Origin: Saccostrea echinata
Taxonomy: Eukaryota
NCBI RefSeq assembly: GCF_033153115.1
Contig: NW_026889759.1
Coordinates: 868,001-932,000, forward strand
Length of the DNA stretch: 64,000 nucleotides
Direction of reading: 5' to 3'
The notes below the pieces were generated by a model, which did no database searches, had not been told where the DNA came from, and worked only from the letters and a program-made list of their open reading frames with translations. How positions within the stretch are numbered: position 1 is the first letter of the stretch; the number at the start of each line of letters is the position of its first letter. Of the stretch, positions 14,727 through 14,808 are shown one piece after another. The position numbers and the translations under genes are program-made.

Positions 14727-14808
14727 TTCCAAATTTAGAATTAAAATCCTTGGAAACTGAGTACAGTACCTTGAAAATTGTCAACAAGATTTGCGGATTC
14801 TCCGTCAT
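14689..14808 (-). other. Out-of-frame uORF (39 aa) overlapping the VAChT start
   Basis: ATG at 14808 (weak context TGGATGA) reads MTENPQILLTIFKVLYSVSKDFNSKFGNGICTGFGPREM* to TAG 14691-14689, past the VAChT ATG at 14726. Confidence 0.6.

What the first reader, a model, noticed from the sequence alone, without database searches (positions are those of the whole stretch)
14727..14769. VAChT homology appears to extend upstream of the first AUG; a 13-nt GT..AG segment sits at the frame junction
Seen: the VAChT frame is open upstream of ATG 14726 as ..QFPRILILNLE-MEYVQDLVREK, back to a TGA at ~14783, with no AUG. As I recall it, the Drosophila VAChT N-terminus is FQIPVINLEVREVKDIVWEK, which aligns across this AUG. 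Removing GTACTGTACTCAG (14769-14757) fuses the uORF in frame (MTENPQILLTIFK-FPRILILNLEMEY). Options (inference): non-AUG initiation (ATT in AGGATTT; Drosophila ChAT uses a GUG start), CAG|TTT at 14756 as an alternative acceptor, a +1 frameshift, a micro-intron shorter than usual spliceosomal limits (least likely), or recent loss of an ancestral AUG.
Basis: partly seen in the sequence, partly recalled or inferred. Interest (0 to 1): 0.7.

Follow-up and report, generated by a model that had tools for sequence, protein, structure and literature searches.

The report
Oyster acetylcholine transporter's puzzling leader
This is an oyster's acetylcholine-packaging transporter gene, which likely starts at the usual start codon on a spliced message that keeps the supposed 13-base intron; the leader carries a short overlapping reading frame whose look of a hidden, longer transporter front end is probably coincidence but is not excluded.

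Summary
The sequence is as described. The gene is an intronless oyster VAChT inside the ChAT locus; a leader exon (donor 24476) splices to 14865. The start Met sits 41-48 residues before the end of the LLLDN anchor in 98 of 117 homologs, and at 45 here, so AUG 14726 is the family start, not a secondary one. Three spliced contigs keep the 13 nt, and none of the contigs from 8 runs shows the gap or a junction at 14756 or 14770; 13 nt is below the shortest spliceosomal introns reported in the paper read. Three results stay unexplained: (1) codons 14756-14727 match the ancestral N-terminal motif better than 3000 of 3000 random translations, though only with an 11-residue insertion; (2) the first 13 uORF codons vary mostly synonymously in three close relatives (5 of 7, p about 0.003); (3) they resemble moth and butterfly VAChT N-termini (1 of 1147 control ORF heads as good). 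The last two were seen post hoc and relatives are 91-94% identical. Best reading: leaky scanning past a weak overlapping uORF to 14726 (0.68). A minor extended VAChT has about 0.17.

The parts
24476..24505 (-). 3' end of the leader exon (exon 1), donor AAG|GTAAGT; its 5' end is not mapped. Likely shared with ChAT (inferred).
   Evidence: Loose end of X1 contig matches here exactly; similar loose ends in X14 and X15; contigs X1 and X15 begin exactly 30 nt into it
14866..24475 (-). 9610-nt GT-AG intron; acceptor is a 90% pyrimidine tract ending TTTAAG
14727..14865 (-). 139-nt leader part of exon 2, one AUG (14808), no indels in three relatives
14689..14808 (-). 39-codon uORF, out of frame, overlapping the VAChT start; weak start context (T at -3, A at +4); length kept in relatives C, D, E
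   Evidence: no Pfam hit; no credible protein relative
14770..14808 (-). First 13 uORF codons: 7 variable sites, 5 synonymous, 6 at third positions
14757..14769 (-). 13-nt GT..AG segment, retained in spliced transcripts, invariant in three relatives
14727..14756 (-). Ten in-frame codons upstream of the AUG that resemble the P-h-h-N-x-D/E motif of non-mollusc VAChT N-termini; two variable sites, both non-synonymous in this frame
13077..14726 (-). Intronless VAChT (SLC18A3) coding sequence, 549 aa, start context G at -3 and G at +4 (A at -3 in relatives)

Best explanation
The oyster VAChT mRNA joins a leader exon to position 14865 and keeps the 13-nt segment, and the transporter likely starts at the family-conserved AUG 14726, which ribosomes likely reach by scanning past the weak upstream AUG at 14808. 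Ribosomes that do start at 14808 would read an overlapping 39-codon uORF and make no VAChT, so the uORF would damp VAChT output (inferred from the general behaviour of overlapping uORFs). The ten upstream codons that look like an ancestral N-terminus are most likely not part of the protein: a chance match helped by an 11-residue periodicity of the N-terminal helix, or an untranslated relic. Shown: splice junction, retention of the 13 nt in the assembled form, conserved Met column, ChAT exons downstream. Inferred: start use, leaky scanning, sharing of exon 1 with ChAT.
For: Met column: 98 of 117 anchored homologs start 41-48 residues before the end of LLLDN, 90 at 43-46; window 45 (2 of 119 had no anchor). 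Among the 24 closest, 15 at 45, 6 at 46, 2 at 41, 1 longer with a Met at 46. In 48 distinct metagenomic VAChT loci, 18 have an in-frame stop within 10 codons of that Met, including clam-type locus L011 (7 open codons). Upstream in-frame stretches seen in other bivalve-type proteins (P0024, P0144, P0148, P0163, L012) do not look like the window's by eye. Spliced contigs X1, X14, X15 cross 14757-14769 with 0 gaps; bin depths fit one contig per run. Contexts: uAUG weak, main AUG strong, A at -3 in all three relatives. The E of the NLE match is K in all three relatives. An overlapping uORF of this kind arises in 13% of random 139-nt leaders.
Against: Upstream codons match the ancestral motif far above the null (0 of 3000), and still score 11.3 and 10.3 (window 14.7) in relatives. 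Residues 1-11 of the window and of all six other oyster-type proteins tested prefer the 11-shifted register. No indel or stop in 14756-14727 in three relatives; only 1 variable site in 14769-14730 against 4.5 expected (p 0.06). uORF head 5 of 7 synonymous (permutation p 0.003-0.004). uORF head resembles 11 lepidopteran N-termini (1 of 1147 control heads as good), and head, upstream codons and residues 1-11 together give 11 identities in 34 gap-free columns. Assembled contigs drop minor forms, so a minor isoform is not excluded. Annotated Met positions come from first-ATG gene calls and could not show a non-AUG start. No leader DNA from Ostrea or Crassostrea could be obtained.
Confidence: 0.68

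Rival explanations
1. A near-cognate start (ATT 14747 or TTG 14732, both with A at -3) would give a minor VAChT 7 or 2 residues longer.
For: Open frame and motif match; both codons unchanged in three relatives; contexts.
Against: A strong AUG follows within 21 nt; both variable sites in the stretch are non-synonymous; no such extension seen in other bivalve-type sequences. The Drosophila ChAT GUG precedent is recalled; search gave three listings, none read.
Confidence: 0.1
2. The uORF head is joined to the VAChT frame in a minority of molecules, by excision of the 13 nt or by a +1 ribosomal shift, giving a VAChT 23-27 residues longer.
For: Synonymous bias ends at the GT (5 of 7 before, 1 of 7 after); 13 nt invariant in three relatives; gap-free fit to lepidopteran N-termini.
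Against: No gap in any contig of 8 runs. Shortest spliceosomal introns in PMC13644364: 15-16 nt in Stentor, median 22 nt in myxozoans, typically 50-90 nt in animals. No slippery site or in-frame stop at the junction by eye; folds not better than shuffles (z -0.7 to -1.7). The 57-residue N-terminus is seen only in lepidopteran-type hits, so shared ancestry with an oyster leader is unlikely. Frame-fusing GT..AG pairs are common by chance.
Confidence: 0.07
3. GT at 14769 is a weak donor and 14865-14770 a small coding exon of a minor, N-terminally longer ChAT isoform.
For: Explains a synonymous bias that stops at the GT; phase-0 acceptors exist before ChAT exons at G000:C10:825865 and 821832.
Against: ChAT starts at a Met conserved across most lophotrochozoan hits and no ChAT found begins like the uORF. 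Contigs X1, X14, X15 run through 14770 without a break. Donor lacks the usual G at +5.
Confidence: 0.08
4. 14756 or 14769 is an alternative acceptor for exon 1, giving a VAChT mRNA without the upstream AUG.
For: CAG at 14757 and TTTTCAAG at 14770 are acceptor-like.
Against: Pyrimidine content 55% and 60% against 90% at the used acceptor; exon 1 has no in-frame AUG to supply; all three spliced contigs use 14865.
Confidence: 0.04
5. An ancestral AUG (for example at AGG 14750) was lost recently.
For: AGG is one change from ATG and lies five codons before the motif Asn.
Against: AGG is unchanged in eight runs; Ostrea, Crassostrea, mussel, scallop and clam proteins start at the downstream Met.
Confidence: 0.03

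Closest known systems
Cholinergic gene locus (VAChT nested in ChAT; Ciona VAChT/ChAT, C. elegans unc-17/cha-1)
   Same: VAChT coding exon lies between a leader exon and the ChAT coding exons on one strand (ChAT AUG 55 kb past the VAChT stop). PMC8719597 (passages) describes two alternatively spliced transcripts sharing a non-coding exon 1.
   Different: Sharing of exon 1 is only inferred here. An overlapping uORF near the start was found in 3 of 48 other VAChT loci. No complementary element between the leader and the downstream intron.
VAChT / SLC18A3 of oysters (XP_062593299.1, XP_048759446.1, XP_052687666.1)
   Same: 520 of 549 residues identical to the Saccostrea cucullata protein, same start Met.
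   Different: Nothing at protein level; their leaders could not be read.
Overlapping AUG uORFs passed by leaky scanning (general knowledge; listings)
   Same: Out-of-frame AUG in weak context, stop downstream of the main AUG.
   Different: Only the first 13 codons show a coding-like pattern; conserved-peptide uORFs usually show it over deeper distances (recalled).
Ultra-short spliceosomal introns (Stentor, myxozoans, Dicyema; PMC13644364)
   Same: GT..AG ends.
   Different: 13 nt is shorter than any length seen in that paper, and it is retained in the spliced contigs.

Membership tests
VAChT (SLC18A3) | MFS transporter closer to VAChT than to VMAT | tested here: met
   PF07690; solved VAChT chains 510-537 bits against VMAT 351-374; named oyster VAChTs in the same or next clusters
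Cholinergic gene locus | VAChT coding sequence upstream of the ChAT coding exons, same strand, downstream of a leader exon | tested here: met
Cholinergic gene locus | First exon shared by VAChT and ChAT mRNAs | tested here: inconclusive
   X1 and X15 contigs begin exactly 30 nt into exon 1, as expected of a graph fork with 31-mers; the other branch was not seen
Spliceosomal intron (13 nt) | Removed from spliced mRNA | tested here: not met
   0 gaps in spliced contigs X1, X14, X15; minor forms not visible
Spliceosomal intron (13 nt) | Length within the reported range | tested here: not met
   15-16 nt is the shortest in the passages read
Non-AUG N-terminal extension | Codon-level conservation of the in-frame upstream stretch | tested here: inconclusive
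   No stop or indel, but 0 of 2 changes synonymous, in three relatives at 91-94% identity; not seen in other bivalve-type loci
Non-AUG N-terminal extension | Initiation upstream of the AUG | not testable with these tools
   needs ribosome profiling or proteomics
Conserved-peptide uORF | Purifying selection on the uORF peptide | tested here: inconclusive
   Head 5 of 7 synonymous (p 0.003); whole non-overlapping part 5 of 9 (p 0.056)
Conserved-peptide uORF | Peptide conserved beyond close relatives | tested here: inconclusive
   One spurious repeat-protein hit among 1.84 billion representatives; not in the collection; such short ORFs are often not called
Programmed +1 frameshift | Shift site with stop or pause and stimulator | tested here: inconclusive
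   No site recognised by eye; no stop at the junction; folds within shuffle range

The most novel reading that the evidence does not exclude
Oysters make a second, longer VAChT whose N-terminus is hidden in the leader: the 13 uORF codons under selection are joined to the ten motif-bearing codons by a 13-nt excision or a +1 shift, or a near-cognate codon starts the motif-bearing part, restoring the ancestral N-terminal motif that the AUG-started form lacks.
Probability: 0.17. Interest if true: 0.75.

Novelty: new member of a known kind. Interest (0 to 1): 0.33.

Why it matters
As best read, it is one more cholinergic locus, with its leader intron mapped and an overlapping uORF that could set the VAChT to ChAT ratio after splicing. 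If the hidden extension were real, it would be a recoding event or a record-short intron in a core neurotransmission gene, and first-ATG annotation of oyster VAChT would be incomplete. The test is cheap: raw ganglion reads and the leaders of two more oyster genera.

Tried and rejected
Assembly error or polymorphism hiding an AUG: rejected, 0 differing letters in the VAChT contigs of four runs. uORF head as the normal ChAT start: rejected, oyster ChATs start at a conserved Met at G000:C10:825844; pairwise comparison of the uORF with the longer C. virginica ChAT gave nothing. Hairpin over the start as the cause of conservation: z -0.7 to -1.7, and one stem pair is broken in all three relatives. 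Long-range pairing of 14900-14690 with the downstream intron: longest exact match 11 nt, null 11-15; G-U pairs and other segments not tested; the window-wide inverted-repeat list was dominated by TA repeats. Second copy of the leader in the genome: none. Leader DNA of other oyster genera: metagenome scan with P0002 found none, scan with the alignment gave 80 loci at 41-66% identity, no oyster recognised, prokaryote genomes none. Earlier findings: none. Mathews et al. 2015 is not held; PMC5413067 passages gave nothing useful. Literature searches listed no paper on an oyster VAChT leader or uORF; listings only, and most subscription papers are not searched. No supplements were opened.

Full report
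1. What is in the sequence. On the minus strand an intronless ORF runs from ATG 14726 to 13077 (549 aa). Its frame is open upstream to a TGA at 14783-14781, with no AUG. A 39-codon ORF starts at 14808 in another frame and ends at 14689, past the main start. The 13 nt 14769-14757 begin GT and end AG. The protein is an MFS transporter, scores 510-537 bits against solved VAChT chains and 351-374 against VMATs, and has 520 of 549 residues identical to a Saccostrea cucullata VAChT. The genome is thus a Saccostrea-type oyster.

2. The transcript. Contigs of eight public runs were laid. In X1 one contig covers 12977-14868 with 0 differences and 0 gaps, and its loose 5' end matches 24479-24505 exactly, where AAG|GTAAGT follows. 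This gives a 9610-nt intron, 24475-14866, with a 90% pyrimidine acceptor. X14 and X15, from other organisms, show the same junction. Six of the eight runs bridge the 13 nt with 31 or more letters on each side (X1, X5, X10, X14, X15, X16; X2 and X6 have 28-29 on one side); all eight have 0 gaps; three are spliced. Some tables were cut, but the depth of the bin 14670-14936 equals one contig per run by my arithmetic. So the assembled mRNA keeps the 13 nt and uses neither 14756 nor 14770. Assembly simplifies the graph (Logan preprint 10.1101/2024.07.30.605881, passages), so a minor form is not excluded.

3. The locus. ChAT exons lie downstream on the same strand, with the conserved ChAT Met at G000:C10:825844, 55 kb past the VAChT stop. 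This is the cholinergic locus described for Ciona and said to be conserved from nematodes to chordates (PMC8719597, passages). PMC13299628 (passage) cites splicing elements near the 5' end of unc-17. Contigs X1 and X15 begin exactly 30 nt into exon 1, which is what a fork at the exon end gives with 31-mers if the other branch does not begin with G. The strong acceptor at C10:826000 begins with A. Sharing of exon 1 is therefore likely but inferred; X14 runs 57 nt into the exon without a break.

4. Where the protein starts. Of 119 homologs, 117 had the LLLDN anchor; 98 start 41-48 residues before its end and 90 at 43-46; the window has 45. Eleven lepidopteran-type proteins have 57. In 48 distinct metagenomic loci with such a Met (from L011-L083; duplicates and loci without anchor or Met dropped), 18 have an in-frame stop within ten codons upstream, among them the clam-type L011. 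The main AUG has G at -3 and +4, and A at -3 in all three relatives; the upstream AUG has T at -3 and A at +4. These starts come from first-ATG gene calls, so they show a conserved Met column, not initiation.

5. The apparent upstream homology. Against 43 homologs with the P-h-h-N motif, the ten upstream codons score 14.7 on average at a shift of 11; none of 3000 random stop-free window translations reached that, and none of 1200 when any shift was allowed (1 of 1200 on best single score). Residues 1-11 also prefer shift 11 (+8.4 against -2.9), as in the six other oyster-type proteins tested, while residues 12-26 fit only shift 0 (+18.3 against -23.5). Eleven residues are three helical turns, and residues 7-11 resemble 18-22, which can explain the coding part (inference). 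It does not explain the upstream part. The E of NLE is K in all three relatives, which lowers the score to 11.3 and 10.3.

6. Three close relatives. Organisms C, D and E are 91-94% identical over 14601-14880 with no indel (27 sites listed, and 1-4 further differences per run not listed, presumably near piece ends). In 14756-14727 two sites vary, both non-synonymous in the VAChT frame, no stop. The 13 nt are invariant. In the uORF head 14808-14770 seven sites vary, five synonymous in the uORF frame (permutation p 0.003-0.004), six at third positions; after the GT only one of seven is synonymous; the whole non-overlapping uORF gives five of nine (p 0.056). Organism E has a stop in the VAChT frame at 14774-14772. 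uORF length is 39 in all three. I looked at six segments in three frames, so the head result is suggestive, not firm.

7. A second coincidence. The uORF head scores 10.6 against the N-termini of the 11 lepidopteran-type proteins; 1 of 1147 other ATG-started heads in the window does as well. Head, upstream codons and residues 1-11 in series give 11 identities in 34 gap-free columns with each of three tested. I saw this by eye before testing it. That N-terminus occurs in no other group among the hits, and mollusc N-termini diverge fast among themselves, so I take it as probably chance. It is the main reason the fused reading is not set to zero.

8. Mechanisms weighed. A 13-nt intron is shorter than anything in PMC13644364 (abstract and passages), is retained, and such pairs are common by chance. 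No frameshift signal was recognised and folds are unremarkable. A ChAT mini-exon fits the synonymous pattern and phase but no ChAT protein or contig supports it. Recent AUG loss fails on other bivalves. A near-cognate start remains untested. The uORF peptide has no credible relative.

9. Verdict. Ordinary VAChT in an ordinary cholinergic locus, most likely starting at 14726 after leaky scanning past an overlapping uORF (0.68). The leader holds three statistically odd features that converge on a hidden longer N-terminus (about 0.17 for the two extension rivals together). No description of this leader appeared in searches (listings only). Leader DNA from other oyster genera and raw reads would settle it. 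Interest 0.33.

Noticed in passing
window 14883-14865 (-); L011 about 167 nt and L025 about 58 nt upstream of the Met: The used VAChT acceptor ends in TTTAAG|G instead of the usual YAG; the same pyrimidine-tract TTTAAG|G occurs upstream of VAChT in clam-type locus L011 and in L025 (2 of 30 loci surveyed). A weak acceptor could favour skipping to ChAT.
   Followed up: partly
L011, about 149 nt upstream of the Met: A 7-codon uORF 18 nt after the putative acceptor, containing a GTAAG donor-like site; it does not overlap the start.
   Followed up: no
G000:C10:825937-825844 (-): The 31-residue extension of the annotated ChAT P0167 is contiguous genomic sequence absent from most other oyster ChATs; probably untranslated leader after the acceptor at 826000.
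   Followed up: partly
window 4679-5104 (-), 48156-49202 (-), 60983-61795 (+): Retroelement fragments: RVT_1 at the first and third, endonuclease domain at the second. The first lies inside the ChAT-side intron.
   Followed up: partly
L047, L049, L055, L072-L074, L088: VAChT loci whose frame stays open well upstream of, or lacks, the usual Met column; longer N-termini or split first exons in those lineages.
   Followed up: no
window 4046-4138, 11259-11359, 17401-17488: Long TA microsatellites that dominate the inverted-repeat list.
   Followed up: no
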